This document shows positions 5,564 through 61,390 of a stretch of DNA of 64,000 nt, piece after piece (within the stretch, counting starts at the first letter, position 1; every line of letters begins with the position of its first letter). Where the stretch lies: assembly GCA_030693205.1 (NCBI GenBank), contig JAUYBG010000005.1, positions 9,017 to 73,016 on the forward strand. Direction: 5' to 3'. The position numbers and the translations under genes are program-made. The notes below the pieces were generated by a model. It did no database searches. It was not told the origin of the DNA and worked only from the letters and a program-made list of their open reading frames with translations. The DNA comes from a bacterium. Its GTDB lineage: Bacteria; Patescibacteriota; Minisyncoccia; JAHIHE01.

Positions 5564-5623
5564 TTTGTAGTTGGTAGGAAAATTTTGTTCCTGCTACTCA
5601 CTACAACCTACTCACTACTTACT

Positions 5624-6523
5624 ATGCCTACTTTATACAATCAAGCTGATAAAAATATACGAAACTCTTATCTGTTAATTACAGCTTTTTTGATATTCGC
5701 GATAGGAGTGGGCTGGGTTTTCAGCCGGGCAATGGATAGCCCCGGCATTTTGGTTTTTGCCGTGATATTCAGCATGATAATGAGTATCAGCAGCTATTGG
5801 TTTTCCGATAAAATTGTTTTGGCCATGAGCGGGGCCAAAGAAATTGATCACGACAGCAATCGCGAGCTTTATCATATCGTGGAAAATCTTTGCATTACGG
5901 CCGGACTTCCTGTGCCGAAAATTTATATTATTGACGACACGGCGCCGAACGCGTTTGCCACCGGCCGCGATCCCCAGCATGCAGTCATCGCGGTAACAAC
6001 AGGAATTTTGCAGAAACTCGAAAAATCCGAACTGGAAGGAGTATTGGCTCACGAATTAAGCCATGTAGGAAACCGCGATATTTTATTTTCCACGATCGTG
6101 GTGATTTTGGTGGGTTTTATTACTTTGCTGGCTGATATGTTTTGGCGATCGTCTTTATTCGGAGGCGGGCGCAGAAACAGGGAAGGCGGCGGGGCGATTA
6201 TGATTATCGCGCTTGTTTTGACAATTTTGGCGCCGATCGTGGCGACTTTGATTCAGTTGGCGATTTCCCGGAAGCGCGAGTTTTTGGCTGATGCCAGTGC
6301 CGCGCTTTTGACACGACATCCCGAAGGATTGGCCAGAGCGCTCGAAAAAATCTCCGGCGACACTGAACCGCTGGAAGTGGCGAACAAAGCCACGGCGCAT
6401 ATGTATATCGTGAATCCTCTGAAAGGCAACGGTAGCGGCCGGAGCTGGTTTGCCAATATGTTTTCCACTCATCCGGCCGTAGAGGAGCGAATTGCGGCGC
6501 TGAGAGGATTGGAAATAAAATAA
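5624..6523 (+). CDS. htpX: Zinc metalloprotease HtpX (peptidase M48)
   Basis: HEXXH motif AHELSHVGNRD, four TM segments, C-terminal FSTHPAVEERIAALR. Start moved to the ATG at 5624 (MPTLYNQADKNIRNSYLL...), typical of an HtpX N-terminus; the track start at 5585 adds 13 unlikely residues. Confidence 0.85.
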   Translation: MPTLYNQADKNIRNSYLLITAFLIFAIGVGWVFSRAMDSPGILVFAVIFSMIMSISSYWFSDKIVLAMSGAKEIDHDSNRELYHIVENLCITAGLPVPKIYIIDDTAPNAFATGRDPQHAVIAVTTGILQKLEKSELEGVLAHELSHVGNRDILFSTIVVILVGFITLLADMFWRSSLFGGGRRNREGGGAIMIIALVLTILAPIVATLIQLAISRKREFLADASAALLTRHPEGLARALEKISGDTEPLEVANKATAHMYIVNPLKGNGSGRSWFANMFSTHPAVEERIAALRGLEIK

Positions 6524-16418: not shown

Positions 16419-16436
16419 ATTTCTCAAATAATTTTT

Positions 16437-16867: not shown

Positions 16868-17047
16868 ATGTCCACCGAACAACAAAAAATAAGATTGGCG
16901 AAAATCGCTTTTGAAAGATTTTTACAAAAAATCATTCTTTTGCTTGGTGAAGAAAAACAATTATTTGAACGGATTATGGGGAAAATCGAGCAAAGAAAAA
17001 TAAATGAATGCCGGGGAAAAATTTGCGAGATCTACAAAAATAAATAA
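16868..17047 (+). CDS. Small hypothetical ORF (59 aa) occupying the position where the RuBisCO C-domain would be
   Basis: ATG at 16868 to TAA at 17045-17047; MSTEQQKIRLAKIAFERFLQKIILLLGEEKQLFERIMGKIEQRKINECRGKICEIYKNK. No homology recognised; may be non-coding debris. Confidence 0.2.
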   Translation: MSTEQQKIRLAKIAFERFLQKIILLLGEEKQLFERIMGKIEQRKINECRGKICEIYKNK

Positions 17048-17064
17048 TTGATAATTTTAAAAAT

Positions 17065-17952: not shown

Positions 17953-17994
17953 GCCGAATATTTATTAATAAAATAAAAATTAGAAATTTTAACT

Positions 17995-33744: not shown

Positions 33745-33861
33745 TTAAAGTATGTTAAAAAGCAGGGTATTTCGCTCCGCTTTTTAAAATAGTGTTTTTA
33801 GTTGATTTTAAGCGGGTTTTGGGGTAAAATTAGGTAATAGTTGAATTTAAGGAAAATAATT

Positions 33862-36570
33862 ATGCAAGAACAAGCGAAAGAAAAAATAAAAGCGCTGGTG
33901 GAAAAATACGAGAAAATCAAGAGTTCGGGGAAATTAAAATCATATACCGAAGAAGAAACCAAGAAAGATCTAATCCTTCCTCTTTTGGAAGCGCTGGGCT
34001 GGAATGTTTTCGACAAAAACGAAGTTTCAGCCGAAGAACATATCATTTCTTCTGGCAGGGTTGATTACGGGATCTATCTTAACGGCAGGGCTAAATTTTA
34101 TCTGGAAGCAAAAAAGCTTAGCGCGGATTTGCAGCGAGAGGATTTTGCCAACCAATCAATTCGCTATTCGTGGAACAAAGGCGTGACTTGGGCCGTTTTG
34201 ACCGATTTTGAAAGTTTTAAAGTATTCAATGCTCAAGAAATTGATAAATCGCTGGCGGATAAATTGCTTTTTGAAATCCCTTATACCCAATATCTTGAAC
34301 GTTTTGACGAACAATTAAGCCTTCTTTCCAAAGAAGCGTTTGAAAAAGGCCTGATTGATAAATACGCCGAGGAACACGGCAAAAAACTGCAAAAAATATC
34401 CGTAAGCGCGCTTTTATACAAAGATTTGCAAAAAGCCAGAGATATTCTTACTAAAAGTCTGGCGGCGTGGAATGAAAAAGTTCCCAAAGACCTGCTTGAC
34501 GAAGGCGTGCAAAAATTGCTTGATCGCCTTATATTTCTTAGAGTAGCCGAAGATCGCGGCGTTGAGCCGCCGACATTGATTCCGATGATTAGGCAGTGGC
34601 AGGCCAGAAGCAAACAAGAACGCATTTACAAATCAATGATTGAGAAATTTCGGGAATTCGATAAGATTTATAATTCCAATTTATTCTCGCCGCATCCTTT
34701 TGAAGAGTGGGAAGAATACGACGACTCGACTGAAAAGGTGATTAATATTCTCTATGGTAAAAAAGGATATTATGAATACGATTTCAGCGCGATGCCGGCC
34801 GATGTGTTGGGTAGCGTTTACGAGAATTATCTGGGCTATCGGCTTTCACAGTCCAAAAAAGGAATGACTGTTGATAAGGATGCCAAAAAGCGCAAAGAGC
34901 AAGGTATTTATTACACGCCGACTTTTGTGGTTGATTATATTGTCAAAAACGCTTTGGGTCCGGTTTTGGCTGAATGTAAAAGCATCACCGATCTTAAAAA
35001 AATCAAGGTTCTTGATCCGGCTTGCGGTTCGGGCTCGTTTCTTGTCAAGGCTTTGGAAGCGATAAATGATAAATATAAGGATTTCGGCGCTGACGGCGGG
35101 GTTTATACCAAGCTTCAGATTTTAACCGAAAATATCTACGGGGTTGATCTTGACGAACAGGCGGTGGAAATCGCCAGATTGAATTTGTTGATTAACGCTT
35201 TGGATAGCAAGATTAAACTGCCGTCGCTCGCGAAAAATATTAAAAATGGTAATTCACTGATCTCCGACACCGACGAAGAATTAAAAAAATATTTTGGCAA
35301 AAATTTCAGGGACAAAAAGCCATTTAATTGGCAGGAAGAATTTCCAGAAGTTTTCGCGCAAGGCGGTTTTGATGTGATTATTGGCAATCCGCCGTATATT
35401 TTTGCTCGTGGCGGTAATTTTGATGAAAATGAAAAGAAATATTATTATGATAACTTTAAATTGCAGCAGTATCAACTAAATACTTTTTTGCTTTTTATAG
35501 AGCAAGGTTATAATTTATTAAAACAAAACGGCGAGTTTGGTTTTATTGTTCCCAATAATTGGTTGACTATAAATTCATTTTCAAAACTGAGAGAATTTTT
35601 GCTAAAAAATGTTGCTGATTTAAAAATTATTAACGCTATCGAAACTGTTTTTGATCAAGCTAGTGTGGATACAGGCCTTTTGTTATTTCAAAAATCAAAA
35701 CCGACAGAAATTCAACTTGGGGAATTGAAAGAGGGTAATATGCTCGATTTAACTACCTATAAACCAGAAAATTTCTATCAAAATGATTTTATTATTAATA
35801 TTTCAAAATCTAAGAATGTTAACGATAACAATATTTTGAGTAAATTTGAAAAATGTGTTCAACTTAATGAAATTGCGATTGTAAAATCTGGGCTAAAAGC
35901 ATACGAAGTCGGAAAAGGTATTCCTGCTCAAACTAAACAAATGAAGGATGATAGAGTTTATCATTCAAAAACAAAAATTGATCAAAATTATTTTCCCTAC
36001 TTAGAAGGTAAAAATGTTCAAAGGTTTAAAATAAACTGGAGTGGTTGGTATTTGAAATACGGAAAATGCCTTGCTGCCTCCCGAGAAGAAAAGTTATTTA
36101 AAAGTGAAAGAATTTTAGTTAGGCAAATTCCGTCTCCTTTTCCTAGTTGTATAAACGGTGTATTTACCAATAAAGATTATTTAAACGATATAAACAGCAT
36201 GATAATTTATGCTTCTACTAAAGAGTATAATCTTAAATATATTTTAGGGGTTATAAACTCTAGATTAATTTCTTATTGGTTTGTAAAGACTTTTGATAAA
36301 TTTCAGAGAAAGATATTTCCGCAATTTAAGGTTAATGAGCTTGCAAAATTTCCTATTTATCCAGCCAACAGGAAGCAACAGATGACTGTTGTAAATTTAG
36401 TTAATAAAATGCTTGCGTTTAACGAGGAGCTTTTAGAAGCTCCCAAAAATTCCAATAAATGGAATTCGATAAAAGAGGAAATTGAGAAGACGGATAGAAA
36501 AATAGACAAGGAAGTTTATGAGCTTTATGGATTGAGGGAGGAGGAAATTAGGATCGTGGAAAATATATGA
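33862..36570 (+). CDS. Single-chain Type IIG restriction-modification enzyme (N-terminal PD-(D/E)xK nuclease, gamma-class N6-adenine methyltransferase, C-terminal target-recognition domain)
   Basis: N-terminal HsdR_N-like nuclease motif (GRVDYGIYLNGRAKFYLEAKK); methyltransferase motif I VLDPACGSGSFLV and motif IV GNPPYI; long C-terminal specificity domain. Start set to the ATG at 33862; the track start is TTG. Confidence 0.75.
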   Translation: MQEQAKEKIKALVEKYEKIKSSGKLKSYTEEETKKDLILPLLEALGWNVFDKNEVSAEEHIISSGRVDYGIYLNGRAKFYLEAKKLSADLQREDFANQSIRYSWNKGVTWAVLTDFESFKVFNAQEIDKSLADKLLFEIPYTQYLERFDEQLSLLSKEAFEKGLIDKYAEEHGKKLQKISVSALLYKDLQKARDILTKSLAAWNEKVPKDLLDEGVQKLLDRLIFLRVAEDRGVEPPTLIPMIRQWQARSKQERIYKSMIEKFREFDKIYNSNLFSPHPFEEWEEYDDSTEKVINILYGKKGYYEYDFSAMPADVLGSVYENYLGYRLSQSKKGMTVDKDAKKRKEQGIYYTPTFVVDYIVKNALGPVLAECKSITDLKKIKVLDPACGSGSFLVKALEAINDKYKDFGADGGVYTKLQILTENIYGVDLDEQAVEIARLNLLINALDSKIKLPSLAKNIKNGNSLISDTDEELKKYFGKNFRDKKPFNWQEEFPEVFAQGGFDVIIGNPPYIFARGGNFDENEKKYYYDNFKLQQYQLNTFLLFIEQGYNLLKQNGEFGFIVPNNWLTINSFSKLREFLLKNVADLKIINAIETVFDQASVDTGLLLFQKSKPTEIQLGELKEGNMLDLTTYKPENFYQNDFIINISKSKNVNDNNILSKFEKCVQLNEIAIVKSGLKAYEVGKGIPAQTKQMKDDRVYHSKTKIDQNYFPYLEGKNVQRFKINWSGWYLKYGKCLAASREEKLFKSERILVRQIPSPFPSCINGVFTNKDYLNDINSMIIYASTKEYNLKYILGVINSRLISYWFVKTFDKFQRKIFPQFKVNELAKFPIYPANRKQQMTVVNLVNKMLAFNEELLEAPKNSNKWNSIKEEIEKTDRKIDKEVYELYGLREEEIRIVENI

Positions 36571-37166
36571 ATGTAAAAGATAAACAAATTTTAAAAGATT
36601 CAATTGATGTTATTATTTCAAATATTCCAGCATTGAATATTGCTTGGGGGTTAAGTAGAGCACTTTATGGAGCGGGGTTGAAATTACGGGAACAAAGAGC
36701 TTTGGAGTGGGTGGAGATGGTAAGGGATAATCCAGAAGTTTTTACTCAGGAAATATTGCAACAGGAAGAGTTTCAGGACGGATTTGTGTTTTCTCTTGAA
36801 AAGTATTTAACATCACGAAACGAAGAAAAACGTAGATATTTTCGGAATATATTTTTAGGATATTCTAAAAATGATAATAAATACGAGTTTGAATTGGAAA
36901 GATTTGTTCATGTTTTGTCGCAACTAAGTTTAGAAGATATAGATGTTCTTAAATATGTTAATGTTAAAACTCGCAATAGTTACCAAGTTTTTGACGATTC
37001 AAAGTGCTTATCAAGCATTTATCATTTGATTAATTTAGGTATTTTATACAATGATCCTTCGTCTCGAGTTGGTCCTATTGAATTTCCGTTTGTTTATACT
37101 TCGACACTCGGGATAAATTTTATTAAATACCTTAAAAATGAAAAATGTTTGGCCAATAAAAAATAG
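36567..37166 (+). CDS. Hypothetical protein translationally coupled (ATGA overlap) to the Type IIG RM gene
   Basis: 4-nt start/stop overlap with the upstream gene; no recognisable domain. Confidence 0.5.
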   Translation: MNVKDKQILKDSIDVIISNIPALNIAWGLSRALYGAGLKLREQRALEWVEMVRDNPEVFTQEILQQEEFQDGFVFSLEKYLTSRNEEKRRYFRNIFLGYSKNDNKYEFELERFVHVLSQLSLEDIDVLKYVNVKTRNSYQVFDDSKCLSSIYHLINLGILYNDPSSRVGPIEFPFVYTSTLGINFIKYLKNEKCLANKK

Positions 37167-37175
37167 GAGAAATAT

Positions 37176-38639
37176 ATGAATGATAACGATTTATTAAAAA
37201 TATTTTTAGCCGCGCAAGAATGGCAAACATTCGAATGCAAAAGAGCTGCCATTAAACCTGCTGATTTATTAGAAACAGCGGTTGCTTTTGCAAATGCCGA
37301 TGGCGGTCTTGTTGTTATAGGTCTTGAAGATTCCATGAAGGCTCAAGGAGAAAAAAGGTTTATTGGAATTAGTGAGAACGCGAGTAATGTTTCTGACTTT
37401 TTGAAACTGCTAGAAAAAGAAATCGAACCGCCGCTTATGTTGTGGGGAAAGTTTGAGCTTGATATTACAAACACGCAAGGCAAGGCGGATAAGCTTGTGG
37501 TAATAAATATTAAAAAGAGCAATGATGTGCACTCGCTTAAAAGAGGCGATACTTTCGTGAGGAAAGGCCATCAAAATGTTAAAATTGGCTCTACGGAAAT
37601 AATACGGCTTAAATATGAAAAAGGCGCCATAAAGTTTGAAAATGAAAAATCCGATATTGGCCAGCTTAATGATTTAAACCGCGACCTTTTTGAACAGTAT
37701 AAAAAAGATACATCATCCAGCGGTTTAGATGACTGGCAATTCTTGAAAGACAACGGATTAGCTCTAAATGAGGGTGGCAAATATGAATTAACTAAGGCGG
37801 GAATACTTCTTTTTGGTAAAAATCCGTCTGTTATTCTTAAAAGTAAGTGCGGAATAAAAATTTCTCATTACTATGGAACAAAGCCAACATATACCGATAA
37901 ACCGAATTTTGTAAATCGACCGTTTACGATAGAAGGACCGCTAATAAAGCAAATAGAACAAGCCATTGAATATTTTAGCAGTGTTGTTAAAAAGTCTCCG
38001 CCAAAGTTAATTGGCGCTTCTTTTGTTCCGACCTTTTTAATACCGGAATGGGCATTTCAAGAAGCAATAACTAATGCGGTTATCCATCGCAATTATTTTG
38101 TGCAAGACGATATTCAGGTTAGATTTTTTGATGATCGGGTTGAAATAGAAAGTCCAGGCACATACCCTGGTCATATTACAGTTGACAATATTAGATCGGA
38201 AAGATTTTCAAGAAACCCCTTGATTTTAAGAACACTAAATCGTTTTCAGATTGCTCCTAATTTGGATATTGGTGAGGGCGTTGATCGCATGTTTAAGGTA
38301 ATGAAAGAACAAAATTTATATGAACCGTTGTATTTTCCGCCGACCTTAAGGCCAAATTCCGTATTATTGATTTTATTAAATTTACACAAAGTCCAATATT
38401 GGGATACTGTCAGTAAATACGTAGACGAGAATTATCGAATTACAAACAAGAAAGCTCGCGAAATAACCGGTTTAAATGATGTGTTAAAAATGTCTAGGCT
38501 TTTAAAGGCATGGGTTGATAAAGGATTACTTGAAAAAATTGGATTGGCAAAAAAAGATAGCTATTATAGAAAGCCGGGTCAAGAAATACCTAAGCGTTTA
38601 TTTTCAACAGGTATTGATAATAAAATAAAAAATAGGTAA
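37176..38639 (+). CDS. AlbA_2 (Schlafen-like) DNA-binding domain protein with C-terminal HATPase_c_4-like domain and wHTH
   Basis: N-terminus LLKIFLAAQEWQTFECKRAAIKPADLLETAVAFANADGGLVVIGLED is the AlbA_2/divergent AAA-4 signature; C-terminal ITNAVIHRNY...VEIESPG resembles HATPase_c_4; terminal wHTH-like segment. Confidence 0.6.
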   Translation: MNDNDLLKIFLAAQEWQTFECKRAAIKPADLLETAVAFANADGGLVVIGLEDSMKAQGEKRFIGISENASNVSDFLKLLEKEIEPPLMLWGKFELDITNTQGKADKLVVINIKKSNDVHSLKRGDTFVRKGHQNVKIGSTEIIRLKYEKGAIKFENEKSDIGQLNDLNRDLFEQYKKDTSSSGLDDWQFLKDNGLALNEGGKYELTKAGILLFGKNPSVILKSKCGIKISHYYGTKPTYTDKPNFVNRPFTIEGPLIKQIEQAIEYFSSVVKKSPPKLIGASFVPTFLIPEWAFQEAITNAVIHRNYFVQDDIQVRFFDDRVEIESPGTYPGHITVDNIRSERFSRNPLILRTLNRFQIAPNLDIGEGVDRMFKVMKEQNLYEPLYFPPTLRPNSVLLILLNLHKVQYWDTVSKYVDENYRITNKKAREITGLNDVLKMSRLLKAWVDKGLLEKIGLAKKDSYYRKPGQEIPKRLFSTGIDNKIKNR

Positions 38640-38881
38640 TTATCCTTTGTTTATGCAGGTTTTCTTTAATGTCATTTTCACAGCTTTTAAAATTCAAATT
38701 CTCCAAAAAGCTAGGCTTTTTAAAATAATTTTATACGGATACAAAATTTTCAAAAGATTCAATCAAACCCAAAATCGCGGAAATTTTTGAGCAATATTTC
38801 GCAAAAATCGGACATTGTAATATCTCGACTGAATTTTCTTGCCATGGCATAAATTTTCAGTTACAGTAATTTATTTTTAAA

Positions 38882-39487
38882 ATGATTTTACCTAAAATTT
38901 TTAAAAAGAAAGATATTGAGAAGCCAAACGCAATATATGTGTTTATTGATGCGTCGAATTTATGGCAGGCGCAAAAGGCCAAAGGAAAAATGTTTGATTA
39001 TCAGAAGTTGAAAATATTTTTGAAAATAAAATTTGGCGCTTCCGAGATTCAAGTATTTTATTATACCGCCTATCCCGCCAAAGGAACGCGAGATTACTGC
39101 CTTGACGGCAGACATAAGTTTTTTACCTATTTAAAGAAAGGGCTTGGATTTATTGTGAGAAAGAAAGAATTAAAAAGAATAACAACCCATAGCGATGAAC
39201 TTGGCGATTCAATTCAGGAAAAAGGAAATATGGATGTCGAAATGACGATTGATGTAATTCATCATATGAAAAAGTATGATGTTGCTGTATTATTTACGGG
39301 CGATTCTGATTTTCTTGAGTTGGTAACTTATGTAAAAAATGGAGGCAAAAAAGTTTATATCTTTTCTTCAAAGAATAATATTTCCCAAGAATTGCGAACA
39401 GGCGGGGATGGTTATTTTGATGTACTTAATATTGGAGAAGATATTTGGGGCAGAGAATTAAAGCGTAGGGAGAATATGCCGAAATAA
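38882..39487 (+). CDS. NYN/LabA-like (PIN-fold) domain protein, putative ribonuclease
   Basis: VFIDASNLW...GNMDVEMTIDVI...DVAVLFTGDSDF acidic catalytic pattern of NYN/LabA domains. Confidence 0.6.
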   Translation: MILPKIFKKKDIEKPNAIYVFIDASNLWQAQKAKGKMFDYQKLKIFLKIKFGASEIQVFYYTAYPAKGTRDYCLDGRHKFFTYLKKGLGFIVRKKELKRITTHSDELGDSIQEKGNMDVEMTIDVIHHMKKYDVAVLFTGDSDFLELVTYVKNGGKKVYIFSSKNNISQELRTGGDGYFDVLNIGEDIWGRELKRRENMPK

Positions 39488-41407: not shown

Positions 41408-41521
41408 AGGCTATAAAGACTTTATTTGCTTCTCATACCGGGCGCAAAACCCGGTTTTTAATTTTATGGCAGATTTACAGGGTTTGTGATATAATTAAAC
41501 AAAATAGCTTAGAATAATCTT

Positions 41522-41848
41522 ATGTTTAGTCCCGTTATTAATTTTTTTTACGGCTGGTATATTGATGATACGAGAAATTTTTGGAATTGGCTCGGCAAGC
41601 TTTTAAAAACCCTTGATCGCGACATAGGATTAGTTGGTAATTTGCAAAACTGGGCAAGTCCTCTTTATGGAGACTATACTTATGTTGGGATAGTGATAGG
41701 GCCGATCCTAAGGACTATGAGGATTTTTTTTGGTCTGGCTTTTTACTCGGTAATAGCTTTTTTTTCGTTGATGGTTTATTTATTTTGGATAGCTTTGCCA
41801 ATGGTGGCAATTATAATGGTATTTTTAAATTTATTTGATAAAAGATAA
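41522..41848 (+). CDS. Small membrane protein (2 TM), hypothetical
   Basis: ORF with two hydrophobic segments; no motif. Confidence 0.35.
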   Translation: MFSPVINFFYGWYIDDTRNFWNWLGKLLKTLDRDIGLVGNLQNWASPLYGDYTYVGIVIGPILRTMRIFFGLAFYSVIAFFSLMVYLFWIALPMVAIIMVFLNLFDKR

Positions 41849-41850
41849 TA

Positions 41851-44586
41851 ATGGCGGGGATCAATGTCAATAAAAACAAGGATAGTATGGAAATTATAAC
41901 TTGCTCTGTTTGCGGCGGCTTGGGAATTGTTGTCGCTCGTCAATCGGAAGCAAAAAGCCAAACGTGCCAAGAATGCGGCGGCGCGGGAGTGTGGCTCGCA
42001 AAAGGCAATGAAAAATATTTTTGGCAGCCGCAAAACAAAATAGGTTCGTCCTTATCCCGATGGCTAAAGACCGTTGTAGCTGTTGCTATTAAGATTTTGG
42101 CGATTTTTTTTATCATTTCTTCTTATGACAAAGCGATTGTTTTTCTGGAATCTTCCGATGATATTTTTGCTTTGTTCACTCAAAAAGGCGTCGAACCTTT
42201 TCTTTTTTGGGCATCAACGCTTGTTTTGGTTTACTGGATCTATCTTTTGCGGGCGGCGGCAAAAAAAGAGCGCGAACAAGATTTTGATATTTTTAAAATA
42301 GTATTCGGTGTGTTTGATAAAGCGGAAACAAATCGGGGAAGCGGGTTCAATATTGAGCCGCTTTTGGATTCTTCGGCCAAGGGAAAAATTTACGAAGCCG
42401 GAGCGATTGCCGAAGGATCAAAAAACCAGGTTGGCGTTTGGCATTTACTGAAAGCGCTGTTTAGTGATCGGGATATTGAACGGATCATTGCTATGCTTGA
42501 AGTCAGCCAAAAAGAAATGATCGAATTAATAAATAATAAGATCAAAGAAACCGCCGAGCCGATCTTAGGAGAGCAAAAAGTTCAATTCAATGCCGATATT
42601 AAGAAAGCCGTGATCGGTTCTTTGCTGGAAGCGGTAAAAATGGGTAGGAAAGATATTGATAAAATAAGCCTTTTTTCTTCGGTGGCGATAAATCTTAAGG
42701 ATGTTAATTTTTTCTTGCAGGGATCGGGGATCAACGCGGAGAATCTTCATACGGGAGTATTGTGGTCTCAAAAGGAAAATAACGGAGGATTCTTACAAAA
42801 GTTATTTATAAAAAAAGGGCTCAGAAGAGTAACGATCAAGCATCGGATAATGAATAGCGCGTGGACAGCCAGGCCGACGCCGACTCTTGATAAATTCAGC
42901 TACGACATAACCGATTATGCGGCGGCGGGGGTTTTGCCTCCGATCGTGGGCAGAGAAAAGGAGATCAGCGAAGTAATGAGAATTTTGGAGAGAAACAGCA
43001 AGAATAATGTGCTTTTGATCGGCGAGACAGGGAGCGGCAGAAGATCTATCGTTAACGCGATCGGCAGATTAATGGCTAGTGATAAATGTTTGTCAAAACT
43101 TAGAGACAAGCGTCTGGTTTCTCTTGATGCTTCATTGGTAGTTTCCGGAGTGACGGCAGGCGGTGAGCTTGAGGAGAGAATACAAGATATTTTGCAGGAA
43201 ATCCAATTGGCGGGGAATATTATTTTTTTTATTCCCGATATTCATAATTTAGCCGACTCGGGCGCTGAGCATGGTTTTGATGTTTCGGAAATCCTAACTC
43301 CGGTTTTCAGACAAAGCTATTTACAGGTAATTGGTACGACAACTTTTTTTGATTATCACCAGACGATCGAGAAGCGCGGCGATTTTGCCGATACTTTTGA
43401 TATAGTTAAGGTGGAAGAGGTTACTCCCGATGTTGCTTTGGAAATTTTATCAAGGGAATCATACGGAATAGAGGAAAAAGAAGAAGTTCGGTTTACTTTT
43501 AATGCTCTTAAAAAAGCGGTTGATCTTTCCCAAAGGTACATTTTTAACAAGCTTTTGCCCGCCAAGGCTGTGGATCTATTAAGCGAGGCTGCGGTTATGG
43601 TGAAAGTGCGATCGGGAAAAGATTCTTTGGTAAAGAGCGAAGACATCATGGCTTTGGTGACCGAAAAGACAGGGGTGCCGGTTATTGATATTACAAGCAA
43701 GGAAGCGAATATATTAAATAATCTTGAATCAGAGATTCACAAAAGAATGATCGGCCAGGATTTGGCGGTTAAAGCGATTTCCGAAGCGATCAAAAGAATG
43801 CGAGTGGGTTTGAAGAACGAGAAAAAACCTATGGGTGTGTTTCTTTTTTTGGGGCCGACGGGAGTGGGGAAAACAGAGCTGGCTAAGACTCTGGCTGAGG
43901 TTTATTTCGGTTCGGAAAAATTAATGGTGCGCCTGGATATGAGCGAGTTTCAGTCGGTGCAAAGCATTGAAAAACTGATCGGTTCTCCGGACGGAGTTGT
44001 CAGCGGCCAGTTGACCGAGGCGGTAAAAAAGAAGCCGTTTTCGCTTGTCTTGCTTGATGAGTTTGAAAAAGCGCATCCCAATGTTCTAAATTTATTTTTG
44101 CAGGTTTTTGACGATGGCCGCCTTACGGACAGTTTGGGCCGGTTGGTGGATTTTACCAATACTATTATTATTGCCACATCCAATGCCGGATCGAAGATCA
44201 TTCAGGAGCGGCTAAGGGAAGGAAAAACCATACCGGAATTCCAGGCGGAATTCGAAAAGAATTTATTGGAATATTTCAAACCGGAACTTTTGAATCGTTT
44301 TAACGCGCAGATCATATTCAAGACTTTATCCGAGGACGATATTACTCAGATCGCGAAGCTGCAGATCAAGAATCTTTCCAAGCGCATGGAGAAGGCTCAG
44401 GGCATTGAAATAAAGATCACAGATGAGGCGGTGGCAAAAATTTCAAGAATAGGATATAATCCTTTTTTTGGCGCTCGTAATTTGCAGAGGGTGATCACAG
44501 AAAAGATCGAAAACGTTATTGCCGATAAGTTTTTGAAAGGGGAGATCAAGCGCGGACAGGTTTATACGGTTAAAGATATAGAATAA
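41851..44586 (+). CDS. Clp/Hsp100-family two-ring AAA+ ATPase (ClpC/ClpB-like) with N-terminal zinc ribbon and two TM segments
   Basis: N-terminus CSVCGG...CQECGG (Zn ribbon) then TM segments (VVAVAIKILAIFFIISSY, LFWASTLVLVYWIYLL); a Clp_N-like repeat; D1 with atypical Walker A GETGSGRRS (Lys replaced by Arg); D2 with canonical GPTGVGKTELAKTLA, sensor and ClpB_D2-small motifs. No IGF/LGF ClpP-docking loop noticed. Confidence 0.75.
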   Translation: MAGINVNKNKDSMEIITCSVCGGLGIVVARQSEAKSQTCQECGGAGVWLAKGNEKYFWQPQNKIGSSLSRWLKTVVAVAIKILAIFFIISSYDKAIVFLESSDDIFALFTQKGVEPFLFWASTLVLVYWIYLLRAAAKKEREQDFDIFKIVFGVFDKAETNRGSGFNIEPLLDSSAKGKIYEAGAIAEGSKNQVGVWHLLKALFSDRDIERIIAMLEVSQKEMIELINNKIKETAEPILGEQKVQFNADIKKAVIGSLLEAVKMGRKDIDKISLFSSVAINLKDVNFFLQGSGINAENLHTGVLWSQKENNGGFLQKLFIKKGLRRVTIKHRIMNSAWTARPTPTLDKFSYDITDYAAAGVLPPIVGREKEISEVMRILERNSKNNVLLIGETGSGRRSIVNAIGRLMASDKCLSKLRDKRLVSLDASLVVSGVTAGGELEERIQDILQEIQLAGNIIFFIPDIHNLADSGAEHGFDVSEILTPVFRQSYLQVIGTTTFFDYHQTIEKRGDFADTFDIVKVEEVTPDVALEILSRESYGIEEKEEVRFTFNALKKAVDLSQRYIFNKLLPAKAVDLLSEAAVMVKVRSGKDSLVKSEDIMALVTEKTGVPVIDITSKEANILNNLESEIHKRMIGQDLAVKAISEAIKRMRVGLKNEKKPMGVFLFLGPTGVGKTELAKTLAEVYFGSEKLMVRLDMSEFQSVQSIEKLIGSPDGVVSGQLTEAVKKKPFSLVLLDEFEKAHPNVLNLFLQVFDDGRLTDSLGRLVDFTNTIIIATSNAGSKIIQERLREGKTIPEFQAEFEKNLLEYFKPELLNRFNAQIIFKTLSEDDITQIAKLQIKNLSKRMEKAQGIEIKITDEAVAKISRIGYNPFFGARNLQRVITEKIENVIADKFLKGEIKRGQVYTVKDIE

Positions 44587-44841: not shown

Positions 44842-45984
44842 ATGCTTAATGCCAGATTTTTCAATGCTCTTGCGATGCTCGTCGGCACTATTATCGGCGC
44901 CGGTATTTTTGGTTTGCCATATGTCGCGGCAAAAACGGGCTTGGTTCCCACGGTGATTTATTTGACAGTGCTGACTTTTATCGTTTTGTTGATGCATCTT
45001 TTGTACGGAGAAGTCGTTTTGAGGACCAAAGGCAAGCATCGCTTGGTGGGTTACGCCGAGATCTATCTGGGAAAATGGGGGAAAAGGGTCGCGACTTTAT
45101 CCGTTGTTTTGGGCGGTTACGCCGGCCTTTTGATCTATATAATCTTAAGCGGCGTTTTTTTATCCAATCTTTTGGGAGAATTTTTTGGCCATGATCCGCG
45201 GCCTTATAGCATAATCGTATTTTTTGTCTCTTTTATTTTTATTGCCGGCGGGCTCAAAGTTGTTTCGTGGGTAGAGTCATTTTTGTCTTTTTTGCTTGTT
45301 GCCGCTATTTTTCTTTTTTTAGCAAAAGGATCTTCTTCAATCAGCCTTTCCAGTTTTACAGAGAGTATTAATTGGTCCGAAATTTTCTTGCCCTACGGGG
45401 TGCTTCTTTTTGCTTTGACCGGCGGTTCGATCATTCCAGATTTGATATCGGTTTTGGAAAAAAAAGAAAATTTGATCAAAAAAACAATCATTATCGGCAC
45501 TTTGATCCCCGCCGTTATTTATTTTTTATTTATCGTAATAATTTTTGGAATTACCGGAGAAGCTACTACGCCGGACGCGATAACGGGATTAAAAAATTTT
45601 TATGGCGACGGGTTCGTGAAGATCGGCGCGCTAGTCGGATTTTTGGCGGTGATCACTTCGTTTTTGGCTTTTGGCATCAATTTGAAAAAAACCCTACAGC
45701 ATGATTATAAATTTTCCAAAGCTTTATCTCTGGTGCTGGCGCTATTTGTTCCGTTCTTGATATTTTCAACCGGCTTTAACGATTTTATCCGCGTGATCGG
45801 ATTTTCGGGAGCGGTAATGGGTGGCATTGACGGCGTCTTGATAATTTTGATGTATCAGAAAGCCGATCGCGAAGGCAAAGGCACAAGAAAGCCGGAGTAT
45901 GATATTCCAACTTCAAAAGCTTTGGAATATTTGCTAGTTGTTGTTTTTGCGTTGGGAATTATTTATGCGATTTTAAATCCATAA
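44842..45984 (+). CDS. Amino acid permease (aromatic amino acid / HAAAP-like transporter family)
   Basis: N-terminus FNALAMLVGTIIGAGIFGLPYVAAKTGL and about 11 TM segments. Confidence 0.65.
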   Translation: MLNARFFNALAMLVGTIIGAGIFGLPYVAAKTGLVPTVIYLTVLTFIVLLMHLLYGEVVLRTKGKHRLVGYAEIYLGKWGKRVATLSVVLGGYAGLLIYIILSGVFLSNLLGEFFGHDPRPYSIIVFFVSFIFIAGGLKVVSWVESFLSFLLVAAIFLFLAKGSSSISLSSFTESINWSEIFLPYGVLLFALTGGSIIPDLISVLEKKENLIKKTIIIGTLIPAVIYFLFIVIIFGITGEATTPDAITGLKNFYGDGFVKIGALVGFLAVITSFLAFGINLKKTLQHDYKFSKALSLVLALFVPFLIFSTGFNDFIRVIGFSGAVMGGIDGVLIILMYQKADREGKGTRKPEYDIPTSKALEYLLVVVFALGIIYAILNP

Positions 45985-45997
45985 AACAAAGTTTTGC

Positions 45998-46378
45998 TTG
46001 AAAAATATTTATATGAATTTTAAAGATAAAAATATTTTGAATTGGATATTGCTCATTTTTTGGATGGGAGTTATTTTTTATTTTTCCAATCAGCTGGATC
46101 TGAAATCCGGATTTGAAAGCCGGCTGGATTTTATTTTGCGAAAAGCTGCGCATATTGCCGAATACGCGATTTTGACATATTTGGCCTGGCAGGCGATAGG
46201 CGACGGGGTGAAAAGTAAAAAATATTTGATCTATGCCGTGATTTTTTCCATATTATACGCGATTGGCGATGAATATCATCAGACATTTGTGCGCTCAAGG
46301 ATCGGAAGTCCCATTGATGTTTTAGTTGATAGTGTGGGAATAACTCTGGCCGGGTTGATAATTTGGAAAAGAAAATAA
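45998..46378 (+). CDS. VanZ-like family membrane protein
   Basis: KAAHIAEYAILTYLAW ... DEYHQTFVRSRIGSPIDVLVDSVG. Confidence 0.75.
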   Translation: MKNIYMNFKDKNILNWILLIFWMGVIFYFSNQLDLKSGFESRLDFILRKAAHIAEYAILTYLAWQAIGDGVKSKKYLIYAVIFSILYAIGDEYHQTFVRSRIGSPIDVLVDSVGITLAGLIIWKRK

Positions 46379-48654: not shown

Positions 48655-49857
48655 ATGCGCATTGGCATTGACGCTCGCACAATTTTAAATCCCGAGCTTG
48701 GCGAAGCGATCGGGATCGGCCACTATACTTTTATGCTGATCCGCCATTTATTGAAAATGGACGCGGATTTTAAAAATGGAAAAAATGAATACGTTTTATT
48801 TTTTGATAATCGCGTAAGGAAAAAAGATATTGAACGGTTTAAGATTACCGGAGTAAAGATCGTTAACTTTCCTTTTTCTTCGTACCGAAGGTATTTGCCG
48901 GGAGTTTATTCGGAAATTTTGGTTAACGCGATGTTTTCGCGCGAGAAGCTGGACATTCTTCATTCACCCGGCGGTTCAATCCCGTTGTCTTATCGTGGCA
49001 AGACAGTAGTGACGGAATCCGGCATCGGTATTCGCAAATTCAGCGATATGTTTCCGCCTTATCAGAGGTTGAGTGCGTCTTTCGCCAAATCTATTTTAGT
49101 CAAAACAAATCATATCATTGTTAATTCCTGGGCGGCGAAAAAAGACACGATTGATTGCTTTGGCATTAAAGCGGAAAAAATAACCCCGATATATAAAGGC
49201 GTTGATCAGAGGTTTTTCGATAAGGTTAGTCAAAATGAAATTGCCAGAGTAAAAGAAAAATATAAGATCAAAGGCAGATATTTCTTGTTTTTGAGCACTA
49301 TCAAGCCGATCAATAATTTGGTTGGGTTAGTCAGGTCTTTTGCCGAAGTGCGCGGAAAAATTCTCAAAGACGCGAAGGATACGCATTTTGCGCTGGAGAA
49401 CGATTGCTCCAACTGCCAGTTGGTTTTAGCCGGCAAGGAAGGGTGGCTGAGCGCCGAAGAAGTGGCGGAAACGGCCAAAGAACTGCAAATTGAAAAAGAT
49501 ATTATTTTAACCGGCTATGTTCCGCCGGAAGATCTGAATGGAATTATCCAGGGAGCGGATCTGTTTTTGTTCCCGCCATTTTATGAGGAATTCGGCGCGC
49601 CGGCCCTAGAAGCGATGGCTTCCGGAGTGCCGGTCATAGCTTCGAGAATTCCGTCGCTGGAAGAAATTTTGGGAAATGGCGCGATATTTATTGATCCGAA
49701 TAATACTGATCATTGGGCGCGAGAAATTGTTAGCCTGATCAATAACAAAAGCCGCCAGAGCGAACTTATCCGGCTTGGCGCGGCGCAAGCAAAAAAATAT
49801 ACTTGGGAAAAAACGGCGGAAGAAACGCTTAGGGTTTATAAAAATATTGTAAAGTAG
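48655..49857 (+). CDS. Glycosyltransferase family 4 (GT-B, glycosyl transferase group 1)
   Basis: C-terminal EX7E-type region EEFGAPALEAMASGVPVIASRIPSLEEILG. Confidence 0.8.
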   Translation: MRIGIDARTILNPELGEAIGIGHYTFMLIRHLLKMDADFKNGKNEYVLFFDNRVRKKDIERFKITGVKIVNFPFSSYRRYLPGVYSEILVNAMFSREKLDILHSPGGSIPLSYRGKTVVTESGIGIRKFSDMFPPYQRLSASFAKSILVKTNHIIVNSWAAKKDTIDCFGIKAEKITPIYKGVDQRFFDKVSQNEIARVKEKYKIKGRYFLFLSTIKPINNLVGLVRSFAEVRGKILKDAKDTHFALENDCSNCQLVLAGKEGWLSAEEVAETAKELQIEKDIILTGYVPPEDLNGIIQGADLFLFPPFYEEFGAPALEAMASGVPVIASRIPSLEEILGNGAIFIDPNNTDHWAREIVSLINNKSRQSELIRLGAAQAKKYTWEKTAEETLRVYKNIVK

Positions 49858-49884
49858 TTGTTTAAGCGGCTATTTTTTGCAACG

Positions 49885-50208
49885 ATGACAGAATTTTTAG
49901 AAAAAAACATAAAAAAACTTAAGAAAATTGCCGGATCCTCATTATTCGCGGCTCTGCCTCTAGAACCGGTTACGATGAAGCCGATGGCAAACTTGATCGA
50001 TTCGCTTCTTAATACTATTTTGGCAATAGTTGCCGGCCTTGGAATTTTGTTTTTGATCATCGGCGGCATAAGATACATCAGAAGCTGGGGAGATTCCGAC
50101 CAAATGGAAAAGGCGAAAAAAATGATCACTTATGTGATTATAGGTTTGGTAGTGATTTTAGTGTCTTATTCCGTGATAGCTACTTTGGATACGATAATTA
50201 ACGGATAG
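49885..50208 (+). CDS. TrbC/VirB2-family pilin-like protein
   Basis: Signal region then LNTILAIVAGLGILFLIIGGIRYIRSWGDSDQMEKAKKMITYVIIGLVVILVSYSVIA, the canonical CPR T4SS-pilin-like double-TM motif. Start set to the ATG at 49885; the track start 49858 is TTG. Confidence 0.7.
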   Translation: MTEFLEKNIKKLKKIAGSSLFAALPLEPVTMKPMANLIDSLLNTILAIVAGLGILFLIIGGIRYIRSWGDSDQMEKAKKMITYVIIGLVVILVSYSVIATLDTIING

Positions 50209-58589: not shown

Positions 58590-58622
58590 AAAAAAAAGAG
58601 CGGTTAAGCCGCTCTAAAATTT
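58590..58622. terminator. Bidirectional terminator hairpin AGAGCGG-ttaa-CCGCTCT between the convergent tgt and large minus-strand genes
   Basis: aaaaaaAGAGCGGttaaGCCGCTCTaaaatttt. Confidence 0.6.
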
Positions 58623-60950: not shown

Positions 60951-61072
60951 AGTATCACTTCCCGCGCTTGAAGCGCTTTTGTTGTTCGTCCTTGTTTTTA
61001 ATTGTAAGGTACAGTGATTCCATATTAATATAAACAAGAATTTTGTCAATAAAAATAGCAGCCGATTTTGCG

Positions 61073-61390
61073 TTATGGCTGCTTTTTCTTTTTTATTTTT
61101 ATGTACCAGATTTCCAGCTTTCCTTCTGTTTCGGAAAATATTTCTATTTTCGTATCCGGGCTGCGGTAGTTGGCGCGCATATCCCATATTCCCCGTTCGC
61201 TAGTATCCATTATTTTAGCCGCTTCTTCCAGCGTGATCGCTTGATCTCTTCCGGTTAGTAAGGCCTCAAGCTCTTTAAGTTTTCCAACAATCAGGTTTTT
61301 TTCAGGGTTTTTCATCATTCTTTGCAGCCTTTCAAAATTTATCCGCTGTTGTTCCGGCGACACAGTTTTGGTTTTTTGATTTTTTGGCAC
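61073..61390 (-). CDS. Excisionase-family helix-turn-helix (HTH_17-like) DNA-binding protein
   Basis: GTG start with AAAGGAGG ribosome-binding site; C-terminal ITLEEAAKIMDTSERGIWDMRANYRSPD matches the excisionase/MerR-like HTH pattern (lt..EaAe.lgvs..tiy.l...g); own TTGACA-16-TAATAT promoter; hairpin terminator GCAGCC...GGCTGC after the stop. Confidence 0.55.
   Translation of the reverse strand: MPKNQKTKTVSPEQQRINFERLQRMMKNPEKNLIVGKLKELEALLTGRDQAITLEEAAKIMDTSERGIWDMRANYRSPDTKIEIFSETEGKLEIWYIKIKKKKQP

What the first reader, a model, noticed from the sequence alone, without database searches (positions are those of the whole stretch)
41851..44586. Membrane-anchored Clp/Hsp100 ATPase with zinc ribbon and a Lys-to-Arg Walker A in the first AAA+ ring
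Instead of a soluble Clp_N start, the protein opens with a CxxC...CxxC zinc ribbon and two TM segments, and only then the Clp-like N-repeat and two AAA+ modules. D1 Walker A reads GETGSGRRS, with the invariant Lys replaced by Arg, so D1 may bind but not hydrolyse ATP. D2 is canonical. No ClpP-docking tripeptide was spotted. A membrane-tethered unfoldase with a regulatory D1 is unusual and could act in membrane-protein quality control in an organism that also encodes HtpX nearby.
Basis: partly seen in the sequence, partly recalled or inferred. Interest (0 to 1): 0.5.

Follow-up and report, generated by a model that had tools for sequence, protein, structure and literature searches.

The report
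Membrane-anchored Clp-like ATPase with small partner
This gene and the small gene just before it encode a membrane-bound, two-part relative of the Clp/Hsp100 protein-unfolding machines, found across the tiny Patescibacteria, that keeps one working ATP motor but has lost the first motor's catalytic residues, both substrate-gripping tyrosines and the docking site for the ClpP protease.

Summary
ORF 41851-44586 encodes a 911-aa class-I Clp/Hsp100 protein. It has a C4 zinc ribbon, two hydrophobic helices, a true Clp_N domain, no M-domain and no ClpP loop.

The D1 Walker A Lys-to-Arg is not a sequencing error: all 32 full-length zinc-ribbon orthologues aligned carry Arg. It is also only part of the picture. 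Across 110 relatives D1 has also lost Walker B (DE to PD), both arginine fingers and the pore-loop Tyr, yet it stays well conserved. D1 is therefore a pseudo-ATPase ring.

That holds only for its ATPase motifs. Its pore loop is shortened by four residues, and no member has an aromatic residue there.

The 108-aa membrane ORF at 41522-41848, two bases upstream, is an obligate partner. It sits next to the Clp-like gene in 22 of 22 loci and is fused to it in Saccharibacteria-labelled proteins.

The most likely reading is a ClpP-independent, D2-driven, two-subunit membrane AAA+ machine of Patescibacteria. It probably remodels rather than processively threads clients, by analogy with Torsin. The client is unknown. 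I found no description in the searched literature. I classify it as a new variant of a known kind, interest 0.65.

The parts
41437..41455 (+). Terminator-like hairpin (ACCGGGCGCAAAACCCGGT followed by a T-run) that closes the upstream flavoprotein gene and marks the 5' boundary of the module.
   Evidence: Consensus scan and direct reading. This is a pattern match only.
41466..41495 (+). Best sigma-70-like promoter match (ATGGCA-18-TG-TATAAT), 27 nt upstream of the small ORF.
   Evidence: 10 of 12 matches with an extended -10. Consensus match only; function not shown.
41522..41848 (+). Partner gene: a 108-aa membrane protein with no Pfam family. It has an N-terminal amphipathic helix (invariant W12, Y13), a P47-L-Y-G-D51-Y52 loop, G56, G60, R64 and R67, then about 38 uncharged hydrophobic residues (Y86, W89, P93 invariant).
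   Evidence: No Pfam or PADLOC hit. Homologues lie directly upstream of the Clp-like gene in other loci at 38-47% identity. There are 528 representative clusters. Adjacency holds in 19/20 scanned genomes and in 22/22 non-redundant loci that hold the Clp-like gene. It is fused to the ATPase in P0348, P0385 and P0365. AF2 pLDDT is 91.
41851..44586 (+). Clp/Hsp100-type double-AAA+ ATPase, 911 aa (NCBI MDP3056989.1, 'AAA family ATPase'). Its ATG lies 2 nt after the partner's stop codon.
41890..42021 (+). C4 zinc ribbon (aa 14-57) made of two CxxCxGxG knuckles: C18, C21, C39, C42.
   Evidence: Sequence. AF2 beta-ribbon. Two CxxC motifs in the zinc-ribbon orthologues P0001-P0033 listed, except P0017, which shows one. 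Weak DnaJ_CXXCXGXG match.
42061..42126 (+). Predicted transmembrane helix 1 (aa 71-92).
42196..42261 (+). Predicted transmembrane helix 2 (aa 116-137). The loop 93-115 is acidic and the flank after TM2 is basic (KKEREQ), which suggests an N-in/C-in hairpin.
   Evidence: The topology is inferred.
42361..42777 (+). Clp_N double-repeat domain (aa 171-309, eight helices).
   Evidence: The profile hits ClpC, ClpA, ClpB and Hsp104 N-domains, best E about 1e-9. AF2 helices.
42838..42885 (+). Family-specific conserved linker K-H-R-I-M-N-S-A-W-T-A-R-P-T-P-T (aa 330-345), nearly invariant across the family but of low AF2 confidence in the monomer.
   Evidence: Invariant-column lists. pLDDT about 50.
42883..43620 (+). 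D1 AAA+ module (aa 345-590), a pseudo-ATPase. Walker A is GETGSGRRS (43021-43047). The pore loop is SGVTAGGELE, with no Tyr (43144-43173). Walker B is IIFFIPDIH (43219-43245). The Arg-finger site is GDFADTFDI (43378-43404).
   Evidence: Conservation is 51% mean pairwise identity across the family and 68% in the zinc-ribbon group.
43630..44583 (+). D2 AAA+ module with ClpB_D2-small (aa 594-911), an intact ATPase. Walker A is GPTGVGKTE (43852-43878), Walker B LVLLDEFEK (44044-44070), sensor-1 ATSN (44173-44184), Arg finger ELLNRF (44284-44301) and sensor-2 FGARN (44467-44481). The pore loop is trimmed to GSPDGVVSG (43981-44007), with no aromatic residue and no ClpP loop.

Best explanation
The finding is the ATPase subunit of a conserved two-gene membrane machine restricted to Patescibacteria (CPR).

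Shown:
- A bicistronic unit (41522-44586) encodes a 108-aa membrane protein and a membrane-anchored class-I Hsp100.
- The domain order is zinc ribbon, TM hairpin, Clp_N, conserved linker, D1, D2. There is no M-domain and no ClpP-docking loop.
- D1 keeps the P-loop glycine scaffold and stays under purifying selection. It has lost the Walker A Lys/Thr pair, Walker B Asp-Glu, both arginine fingers and the pore-loop Tyr.
- D2 keeps every ATPase motif. Its pore loop is shortened by four residues and carries no conserved aromatic residue.

Inferred:
- D1 is a structural, hydrolysis-dead ring, perhaps still nucleotide-binding. It would hold the hexamer together, as NSF-D2 or p97-D1 do, and couple the motor to the membrane-proximal parts.
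- D2 is the only motor.
- The ring sits under the cytoplasmic face of the membrane with its N-domain face, zinc ribbons and the partner's cytoplasmic helix towards the bilayer.
- It acts without ClpP.
- Because both sets of gripping tyrosines are gone, it most likely performs low-force, non-processive remodelling or release of a membrane-associated client or of its own partner. This is Torsin-like or switch-like behaviour, not processive unfolding like ClpB, ClpC or FtsH.

The client is unknown.
For: Architecture:
- Pfam AAA_2, ClpB_D2-small, AAA and AAA_lid_9 all match.
- The best PDB relatives are ClpC and ClpB.
- The Clp_N profile hit is E about 1e-9.
- AF2 gives pLDDT 83.5, with a beta zinc ribbon, two long helices and an eight-helix N domain.
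- Two strong hydrophobic windows are present.

No M-domain:
- The ClpC alignment jumps from residue 407 to 464 while the query is continuous.
- D1-to-D2 Walker A spacing is 274-278 residues in all members.

No ClpP loop: 0 of 110 members have one.

D1 decay is family-wide:
- Walker A Lys column: K76, R34.
- The next residue: E69, R14, K7, with T in only 9.
- Walker B: Pro in 104 of 110, followed by Asp in 97.
- Arg is almost absent from the Arg-finger columns (at most 2 of 110).
- There is no pore Tyr.
- G391, G394 and G396 are invariant, and D1 identity is 51-68%.

D2 pore-loop aromatic column: S21, K21, Q12, R12, A11, T9, E9 and no aromatic residue. All D2 ATPase motifs are invariant.

Partner:
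- It is homologous and adjacent in every locus examined.
- The gap is 2 nt, with its own promoter-like site and an upstream terminator-like hairpin.
- Natural fusions exist in at least four assemblies.

Taxon labels are all Patescibacteria lineages.

Torsin is a precedent for a membrane-associated Clp-related AAA+ protein without aromatic pore loops (PMC5425593).
Against: - No experiment bears on this family.
- Loss of aromatic pore residues does not strictly exclude translocation. The second pore-loop position stays mostly aliphatic (I31, V22, T22, M12).
- A relative with a canonical D1 and a D2 Tyr (P0035) also has the partner gene. The ancestral machine may therefore have been a true threading unfoldase.
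- Membrane insertion rests on hydropathy, AF2 helices and conservation, not on a dedicated predictor. Kyte-Doolittle values for this protein are borderline.
- The physical interaction with the partner is inferred from gene order and fusions.
- I could not check whether the same genomes encode ClpP or canonical Clp ATPases.
Confidence: 0.6

Rival explanations
1. The protein is a membrane-tethered processive unfoldase or extractase for membrane-protein quality control. D2 threads clients, D1 acts as a nucleotide-sensing regulatory ring, and substrates are handed to membrane proteases such as HtpX or FtsH.
For: - A membrane anchor next to a Clp_N domain and a DnaJ-type zinc knuckle could hold unfolded clients.
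- The D2 ATPase is intact.
- The second pore-loop residue is usually aliphatic.
- The relative P0035 keeps a D2 pore Tyr and a canonical D1, and also has the same partner.
Against: - Neither pore loop has an aromatic residue in 110 of 110 members, and the first pore position is variable and polar.
- The D2 loop is shortened by four residues.
- HtpX is 36 kb away and is never syntenic.
- No protease gene recurs near the module.
Confidence: 0.22
2. The protein is the motor of a membrane translocation or insertion device. The hexamer's own membrane helices, together with those of the six partner subunits, would form a ring or basket coaxial with a widened AAA+ channel. ATP turnover in D2 would then gate or drive passage of bulky cargo across or into the membrane, as Bcs1 or PTEX-HSP101 do.
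For: - The stoichiometric membrane partner and the fusions point to an integrated membrane assembly.
- The trimmed pore loop would widen the channel.
- The family is very widespread in episymbiotic, import-dependent Patescibacteria.
- The fused forms sit between secA and prfB-ftsEX in one locus.
Against: - This is purely architectural reasoning. There is no conserved neighbouring cargo or secretion gene.
- The secA proximity is seen in one locus only (L030) and is not evidence of functional linkage.
- There is no structural model of the oligomer.
Confidence: 0.1
3. The protein is an ordinary ClpC/ClpA-type partner of the ClpP protease, as many relatives are annotated ('ATP-dependent Clp protease ATP-binding subunit').
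For: Source annotations of relatives. Best structural matches are ClpC-ClpP complexes.
Against: - The ClpP-docking tripeptide is absent in 110 of 110 members, and the loop region is deleted.
- NCBIfam scores are far below every Clp equivalog cut-off.
- No ClpP is found in the window.
Confidence: 0.03
4. The unusual motifs are an artefact or reflect decay: a sequencing error, a pseudogene, or a mobile defence-island ATPase.
For: The gene lies just downstream of a type IIG R-M, Schlafen/AlbA_2 and NYN islet. D2 matches the PADLOC models PDC-M37B and DolB.
Against: - The motifs are conserved in 110 relatives with an intact 911-aa frame.
- D1 is under purifying selection.
- The PADLOC hits cover only the generic D2 fold, and the partner has no hit.
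- The module keeps housekeeping synteny (rplT, infC, permease) across deep divergence.
Confidence: 0.02

Closest known systems
ClpC (Bacillus subtilis / Staphylococcus aureus; e.g. PDB 3j3t, 9gi1)
   Same: Best sequence and fold match: 40-42% identity and TM-score 0.78 over D1-D2. It has a Clp_N double repeat, two AAA+ modules and a D2-small domain.
   Different: - No M-domain: ClpC residues 408-463 have no counterpart.
- No VGF ClpP loop.
- D1 is catalytically dead.
- No pore-loop Tyr in D1 or D2.
- Extra N-terminal zinc ribbon and TM hairpin.
- Obligate small membrane partner instead of MecA/McsB-type adaptors.
ClpB / Hsp104 disaggregases
   Same: The D2 region after sensor-1 is ClpB-like, short and without a ClpP loop. 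The best NCBIfam hit is TIGR03346. Both are ClpP-independent.
   Different: - Lacks the long coiled-coil M-domain.
- Lacks the D2 GYVG tyrosine.
- Score 545.8 against a cut-off of 1232.1.
- Membrane-anchored.
ClpA
   Same: No M-domain. The Walker A to Walker A spacing of about 277 residues is close to my recollection of ClpA (about 281, from memory, not computed here). The ClpA model aligns in one stretch.
   Different: No IGL ClpP loop, a dead D1, no pore tyrosines, and a score of 496.6 against a cut-off of 993.
ClpX / ClpE N-terminal zinc-binding domains and the DnaJ CxxCxGxG zinc finger
   Same: N-terminal C4 zinc module on a Clp ATPase. The two CxxCxGxG knuckles resemble one DnaJ zinc centre (sub-threshold).
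   Different: It is followed by a TM hairpin. The Cys spacing varies among orthologues (x4, x11, x17). The larger sister subgroup lacks it entirely.
Torsin ATPases (with LAP1/LULL1)
   Same: A membrane-associated, Clp/Hsp100-related AAA+ protein that lacks aromatic pore loops and depends on a membrane-protein cofactor (PMC5425593). This is the closest 'works like' analogue.
   Different: Torsin has a single AAA+ module, lacks its own arginine finger and faces the ER lumen. Here D2 keeps its own Arg finger (R816) and sensor-2, there are two rings, and the partner is not an AAA+-fold protein.
NSF D2 / p97 D1 / PEX1-PEX6 D1 (inactive rings in tandem AAA+ proteins)
   Same: One ring of a double-ring AAA+ protein is retained as a non-hydrolysing or poorly hydrolysing oligomerisation scaffold (established knowledge of those families).
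   Different: These belong to a different AAA clade. Here both Walker B acidic residues and the arginine fingers are replaced.
FtsH, Msp1/ATAD1 and Bcs1 (membrane-anchored AAA proteins)
   Same: N-terminal membrane anchor with the AAA ring held beneath the bilayer.
   Different: No protease domain, unlike FtsH. No aromatic pore loops, unlike FtsH and Msp1. Double-ring Hsp100 lineage. Separate small subunit.

Membership tests
Clp/Hsp100 class I (double-ring AAA+) | Two AAA+ modules (AAA/AAA_lid_9 then AAA_2) plus the C-terminal ClpB_D2-small domain | tested here: met
   Pfam AAA_2 at 3e-52, ClpB_D2-small at 2e-23, AAA_lid_9 at 2e-11, and AAA in two stretches. PDB hits to ClpC, ClpB and ClpA at E about 1e-131 to 1e-95.
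Clp/Hsp100 class I (double-ring AAA+) | Clp_N double-repeat N-terminal domain | tested here: met
   The family profile of aa 160-345 hits ClpC N-domains at E 1e-9 to 5e-9 over ClpC residues 6-137.
Clp/Hsp100 class I (double-ring AAA+) | Conserved aromatic pore-loop residues (D1 KYR, D2 GYVG) used for substrate threading | tested here: not met
   D1 is TAG and D2 is G-VV-SG with a four-residue deletion. No aromatic residue is found at these columns in 110 sequences.
ClpB | Long coiled-coil M-domain inserted in the D1 small domain | tested here: not met
   The D1 and D2 alignments abut (query 589/588). Walker A to Walker A spacing is 274-278 residues.
ClpB | NCBIfam equivalog TIGR03346 score at or above the cut-off | tested here: not met
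   545.8 bits against a cut-off of 1232.1.
ClpC | Short M-domain plus (V/L/I)G(F/L) ClpP-docking loop in D2 | tested here: not met
   ClpC residues 408-463 have no counterpart. The loop region is deleted, and 0 of 110 members carry the tripeptide.
ClpA | IGL ClpP-docking loop, catalytically competent D1, and TIGR02639 score at or above the cut-off | tested here: not met
   No tripeptide. D1 motifs are degenerate. 496.6 bits against a cut-off of 993.15.
ClpV/TssH, ClpK, ClpG | NCBIfam model score at or above the cut-off | tested here: not met
   469 against 884.95, 473.9 against 1900, and 465.6 against 1900. No T6SS genes are found in the window.
ClpX/ClpE-type zinc-binding N domain | Four Cys (CxxC...CxxC) at the extreme N terminus of a Clp ATPase | tested here: inconclusive
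   The four Cys are present and conserved in the subgroup, and are modelled as a beta-ribbon. The only Pfam match is a sub-threshold DnaJ_CXXCXGXG hit, and no ClpX ZBD model was among the 25 best of 34 Pfam matches listed.
FtsH | N-terminal TM segments, a single AAA module and an M41 zinc protease domain | tested here: not met
   No Peptidase_M41 hit. The protein has the double-ring Hsp100 architecture.
Torsin | Single Clp-D2-like AAA+ module lacking both aromatic pore loops and its own arginine finger, activated by a cofactor's arginine | tested here: not met
   Only a weak Torsin Pfam match (22 bits against a cut-off of 27). The D2 Arg finger R816 is invariant. Only the absence of an aromatic pore loop is shared.
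PADLOC defence ATPases (PDC-M37B, DolB) | Match to all system components in a defence-island context | tested here: not met
   Only the D2 fold matches (aa 544-893). The partner has no hit. The module keeps housekeeping synteny.
Membrane-integral protein (two-TM hairpin) | Two helices long and hydrophobic enough to span the bilayer, confirmed by a TM predictor or by experiment | tested here: inconclusive
   Hydropathy, AF2 helices and conservation across the family all agree. DeepTMHMM or TMHMM were not available, and Kyte-Doolittle scores for this protein are borderline.

The most novel reading that the evidence does not exclude
The pair defines a previously unrecognised kind of bacterial membrane AAA+ machine. 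It would be a near-universal Patescibacteria complex in which a pore-loop-less Hsp100 ring, held together by a pseudo-ATPase D1, uses D2 ATP turnover to gate or remodel a ring of membrane helices formed with its small subunit. This would be a Torsin- or Bcs1-like mechanism, for instance for inserting, extracting or passing bulky cargo at the episymbiont envelope. On this reading it is not a protein-unfolding chaperone or protease partner at all.
Probability: 0.15. Interest if true: 0.85.

Novelty: new variant of a known kind. Interest (0 to 1): 0.65.

Why it matters
Hsp100/Clp proteins are textbook threading motors. This is a lineage-wide natural variant that deletes the threading tyrosines of both rings and silences one ring. 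It also bolts the machine to the membrane and adds an obligate small subunit.

The variant tests which parts of the Hsp100 design are needed for which job. It also gives a bacterial counterpart to the still-enigmatic eukaryotic Torsins.

The family is widespread in Patescibacteria. The partner alone forms 528 clusters at 50% identity. Relatives are currently annotated as 'Clp protease ATP-binding subunit' or 'hypothetical protein', so proteostasis inventories of CPR genomes are probably misread.

The fused homologues carry Saccharibacteria labels, a group in which (from my own knowledge, not checked here) some members can be cultured and genetically manipulated. If so, the question could be tested directly.

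Tried and rejected
No complex model was obtained.
- Re-using that linker alignment for a PDB profile search returned only GS-linker fusion constructs and was useless. It was repeated properly with an N-domain-only alignment.
- The third homologue search, with the N-terminal 358 aa of fusion protein P0385, returned nothing. The spread of the fused form is therefore known only.
- Matching proteins by identical 'longest contig' length gave one false pair, P0099 with P0010. Adjacency claims therefore rest on the loci actually read.
- Counting TM segments in the fusion proteins to fix the partner's topology was inconclusive. Their aromatic-rich N-terminal helices also score as hydrophobic.
- The defence-system reading was rejected.
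- No ClpP was found by tblastn with E. coli ClpP in the window or loci. This is not informative about the whole genome.
- Seven literature searches and look-ups in four papers found no description of this family. ClpI of Actinomycetota (PMC10149685) is a different, motif-intact class.
- The alignment of 41 partner sequences was too diverse for the genome scan. The four-sequence alignment worked.


Full report
**1. The observation**

The ORF 41851..44586 (+) exists exactly as reported: ATG to TAA, 911 aa.

It is a class-I Clp/Hsp100 protein:
- Pfam AAA_2 (3e-52), ClpB_D2-small (2e-23), AAA and AAA_lid_9 all match.
- The best solved relatives are ClpC and ClpB, at E about 1e-131 to 1e-130.
- Foldseek on an AF2 model (pLDDT 83.5, pTM 0.75) gives ClpC with TM-score 0.78 and 40-42% identity over D1-D2.

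The N terminus reads C18-SV-C21-GGLG ... C39-QE-C42-GGAG. AF2 models it as a beta zinc ribbon.

Residues 71-92 and 116-137 are the two most hydrophobic windows in the protein (Wimley-White dG -7.6 and -14.2). AF2 models them as long helices. A profile of residues 160-345 hits ClpC N-domains at E about 1e-9, so the N-repeat is a real Clp_N domain.

D1 Walker A is GETGSGRRS, against ClpC GEPGVGKTA.

No dedicated TM predictor was available. Membrane insertion is therefore strongly suggested but not proven.

**2. Not a sequencing error, and not only the lysine**

The exact protein is in NCBI as MDP3056989.1, 'MAG: AAA family ATPase [bacterium]'.

A homologue search returned two groups, all with Patescibacteria labels:
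- Full-length orthologues with a zinc ribbon, TM segments and GxGR in D1 (34-82% identity); 32 of them were aligned.
- A much larger sister group of about 840 aa, with N-terminal TM helices, no zinc ribbon and GxGKE in D1.

Aligned with ClpC, 110 members give these counts:

| Site | Result |
|---|---|
| D1 Walker A Lys column | K76, R34 |
| Mg-coordinating Thr column | E69, R14, T9, K7 |
| D1 Walker B (ClpC IDELH) | IPDIH: Pro 104/110, Asp 97/110 |
| D1 arginine fingers (ClpC ALERRFQ) | DFADTFD; at most 2 of 110 with Arg in these columns |
| D1 pore loop (ClpC KYRGEFE) | xAGGELE, no Tyr |

G391, G394 and G396 of the P-loop remain invariant. D1 also stays well conserved: 51% mean pairwise identity across the family and 68% within the zinc-ribbon group.

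D1 is therefore a selected pseudo-ATPase, not a decaying domain. The Lys-to-Arg is a subgroup-specific detail of that state.

**3. D2 is an intact motor without a gripping loop**

Walker A (GPTGVGKTE), Walker B (LLDEFEK), sensor-1 (ATSN), the arginine finger (ELLNRF) and sensor-2 (GAR) are invariant or nearly so.

The pore loop is different. ClpC SPPGYVGYDEGG aligns to SPDGVV----SG in both the HMMER and MAFFT alignments. At the Tyr column the 110 sequences show S21, K21, Q12, R12, A11, T9, E9 and no aromatic residue. The next position is mostly aliphatic.

The segment that carries the ClpP-docking tripeptide in ClpC, ClpA and ClpX is deleted. It has a fixed length of 34-36 residues, and 0 of 110 members have [ILVM]G[FLM].

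There is no M-domain. ClpC residues 408-463 have no counterpart, and Walker A to Walker A spacing is 274-278 residues.

The NCBIfam equivalog models for ClpB, ClpA and ClpV and the exception models for ClpK and ClpG all score far below their cut-offs.

**4.

The 108-aa ORF 41522..41848 ends 2 nt before the ATPase start codon. Upstream of it lie a terminator-like hairpin (41437-41455) and the best promoter-like site in the region (41466-41495). It has no Pfam or PADLOC family.

Evidence that it is a real and conserved partner:
- Homologues at 38-47% identity lie directly upstream of the ATPase gene in both subgroups.
- A profile finds 374 clusters at 90% identity and 528 representatives at 50% identity. 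Almost all are 80-155 aa and annotated 'hypothetical'.
- A pattern scan of species-representative genomes found 20 loci, all in Patescibacteria MAGs, including two closed chromosomes of about 0.89 Mb. In 19 of them the Clp-like gene follows immediately, with a gap of -11 to +166 nt.
- An all-against-all comparison of 23 non-redundant loci shows the small-then-Clp pair in all 22 that hold the Clp-like gene. This includes the P0035 locus, where the small gene had not been called. The 23rd locus is L011, the exception in the scan above.

Three representatives are natural fusions: P0348 (859 aa), P0385 (875 aa) and the truncated P0365. In these the partner domain is the N terminus of a Clp-like ATPase.
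- They occur in at least four independent assemblies.
- Fragments in the P0348 cluster are labelled Candidatus Saccharibacteria.
- They keep D1 Walker A and B (GSGKT/S; IDEIH or IEEIH), but they too lack both pore tyrosines.

Conversely, P0035 and P0043 keep a canonical D1 and a D2 Tyr, and P0035 still has the partner. The partner is therefore ancestral, and loss of the pore loop and of D1 activity are derived.

AF2 models the partner confidently (pLDDT 91) as helix 4-35, a PLYGDY loop and a long helix 54-107. Its membrane topology remains unresolved.

**5. How it most likely works**

Shown:
- The domain architecture.
- The motif states.
- The gene pairing and the fusions.
- The restriction to Patescibacteria labels.

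Inferred:
- The protein hexamerises like other Hsp100s, since the D2-small domain and the interface motifs are retained.
- D1 serves as an inert scaffold, possibly nucleotide-loaded, as NSF-D2 and p97-D1 do.
- D2 is the only motor.
- The N-domain face, the zinc ribbons and the partner's cytoplasmic helix lie against the inner face of the membrane. The TM hairpin has an acidic loop and a basic C-flank.
- It works without ClpP.
- The nearly invariant linker H-R-I-M-N-x-A-W-T-A-R-P-T-P (aa 331-344) is disordered in the monomer model. It is a candidate contact site for the partner or for a neighbouring subunit.

[quoted passage not shown] I therefore favour a low-force, non-processive remodelling or switch mechanism acting on a membrane-proximal client or on the partner itself.

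The client is unknown. Conserved neighbours are a Trp/Tyr-type permease (13 of the 22 loci that hold the pair), VanZ, rplT and infC. These look like inherited synteny rather than a functional operon.

**6. Rivals**

The second pore position is aliphatic, and an intermediate relative keeps the Tyr.
- A translocation or gating device is possible at about 0.1.
- A ClpP partner is essentially excluded.
- An artefact or a defence gene is essentially excluded.

The proposed HtpX link is unsupported. The only M48 peptidase in the window is at 5585..6523, 36 kb away, and is never syntenic.

**7. Comparison with what is known, and novelty**

It works most like Torsin (no pore loop, membrane-associated, cofactor-dependent) combined with an NSF/p97-type silent ring. 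By descent it is an Hsp100 closest to ClpC in D1-D2 and ClpB-like in the D2 loop region.

It fails the defining tests for ClpB (M-domain, model score), ClpC and ClpA (ClpP loop), ClpV, ClpK, ClpG, FtsH and Torsin (see the membership table).

Seven full-text searches and four papers gave no description of such a family. ClpI of Actinomycetota is a distinct, motif-intact class.

I rate it a new variant of a known kind.

**8. Limits**

- There are no experimental data.
- There is no TM predictor result.
- The genomes' ClpP and other Clp content was not assessed.
- The partner's topology is unresolved.
- The taxonomic spread rests on source labels.

Noticed in passing
window 50703-54266 (+): A 1187-aa class-I aminoacyl-tRNA synthetase (tRNA-synt_1, Anticodon_1 and DUF5915; IleRS-like) carries a NUDIX hydrolase domain at aa 216-334, inside the span of the catalytic-domain match (aa 20-840) (E 7e-24).
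   Followed up: no
window 15405-19494 (+): A CPR-type nucleoside-salvage cluster: an IF-2B-like isomerase (15405-16418), a RuBisCO_large_N-only ORF of 134 aa (16437-16841), a 295-aa ORF (17065-17952) with no Pfam hit even at E 1e-3, and an AMP-phosphorylase-like protein (17995-19494). The RuBisCO large subunit looks split or highly atypical.
   Followed up: partly
window 33841-39487 (+): A small defence-like islet lies just upstream of the module: a type IIG Eco57I/MmeI-like restriction-methylase fusion (909 aa), an unannotated 199-aa ORF, a Schlafen/AlbA_2 plus HATPase_c_4 protein (which also matches a PADLOC pAgo-associated model), and a NYN nuclease.
   Followed up: partly
window 2779-10138 (+): An envelope-stress-like cluster: LemA (2779-3330), an M48/HtpX-like peptidase (5585-6523), DUF1189 (6550-7431) and the DUF2207 membrane protein (8108-10138).
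   Followed up: yes
window 49858-50208 (+): A 116-aa protein matching T4SS_pilin / TrbC-VirB2 pilin, next to a GT4 glycosyltransferase (48655-49857).
   Followed up: no
window 58614-61187 (-): An 857-aa ORF whose only recognisable part is a MarR/TrmB-type winged helix at aa 505-560. The rest is unannotated.
   Followed up: no
L028 3659-6238, L029 3509-6088, L030 6001-8628: The fused partner-ATPase genes sit in a conserved block: the fusion gene, prfB, one or two small ORFs, ftsE, a protein with an FtsX match in L030 (unannotated 255-aa ORF at that position in L028), and a PcsB/M23-like peptidase. The gene upstream is an AP endonuclease in L028 and L029; L030 has secA about 4 kb upstream with other genes between. 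This is a cell-division and secretion neighbourhood, different from that of the split form.
   Followed up: partly
L011 5953-9407: This is the one scanned genome where the small partner gene is not followed by the ATPase. Instead a 589-aa RadC/JAB-like plus DNA cytosine-methyltransferase-like ORF and a 259-aa ORF follow, assignments made by reading the translations. It is possibly an R-M insertion, and the contig ends soon after.
   Followed up: partly
window 44842-46378 (+) and loci L002, L004, L007, L008, L010, L021, L027: A Trp_Tyr_perm-type amino-acid permease lies downstream of the Clp-like gene in these zinc-ribbon subgroup loci. A VanZ-like membrane protein also follows in most of them, but was not found in L002. 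The permease also lies within 6 kb upstream in the sister subgroup (13 of 22 loci). It is unclear whether this is a functional link or inherited synteny.
   Followed up: partly
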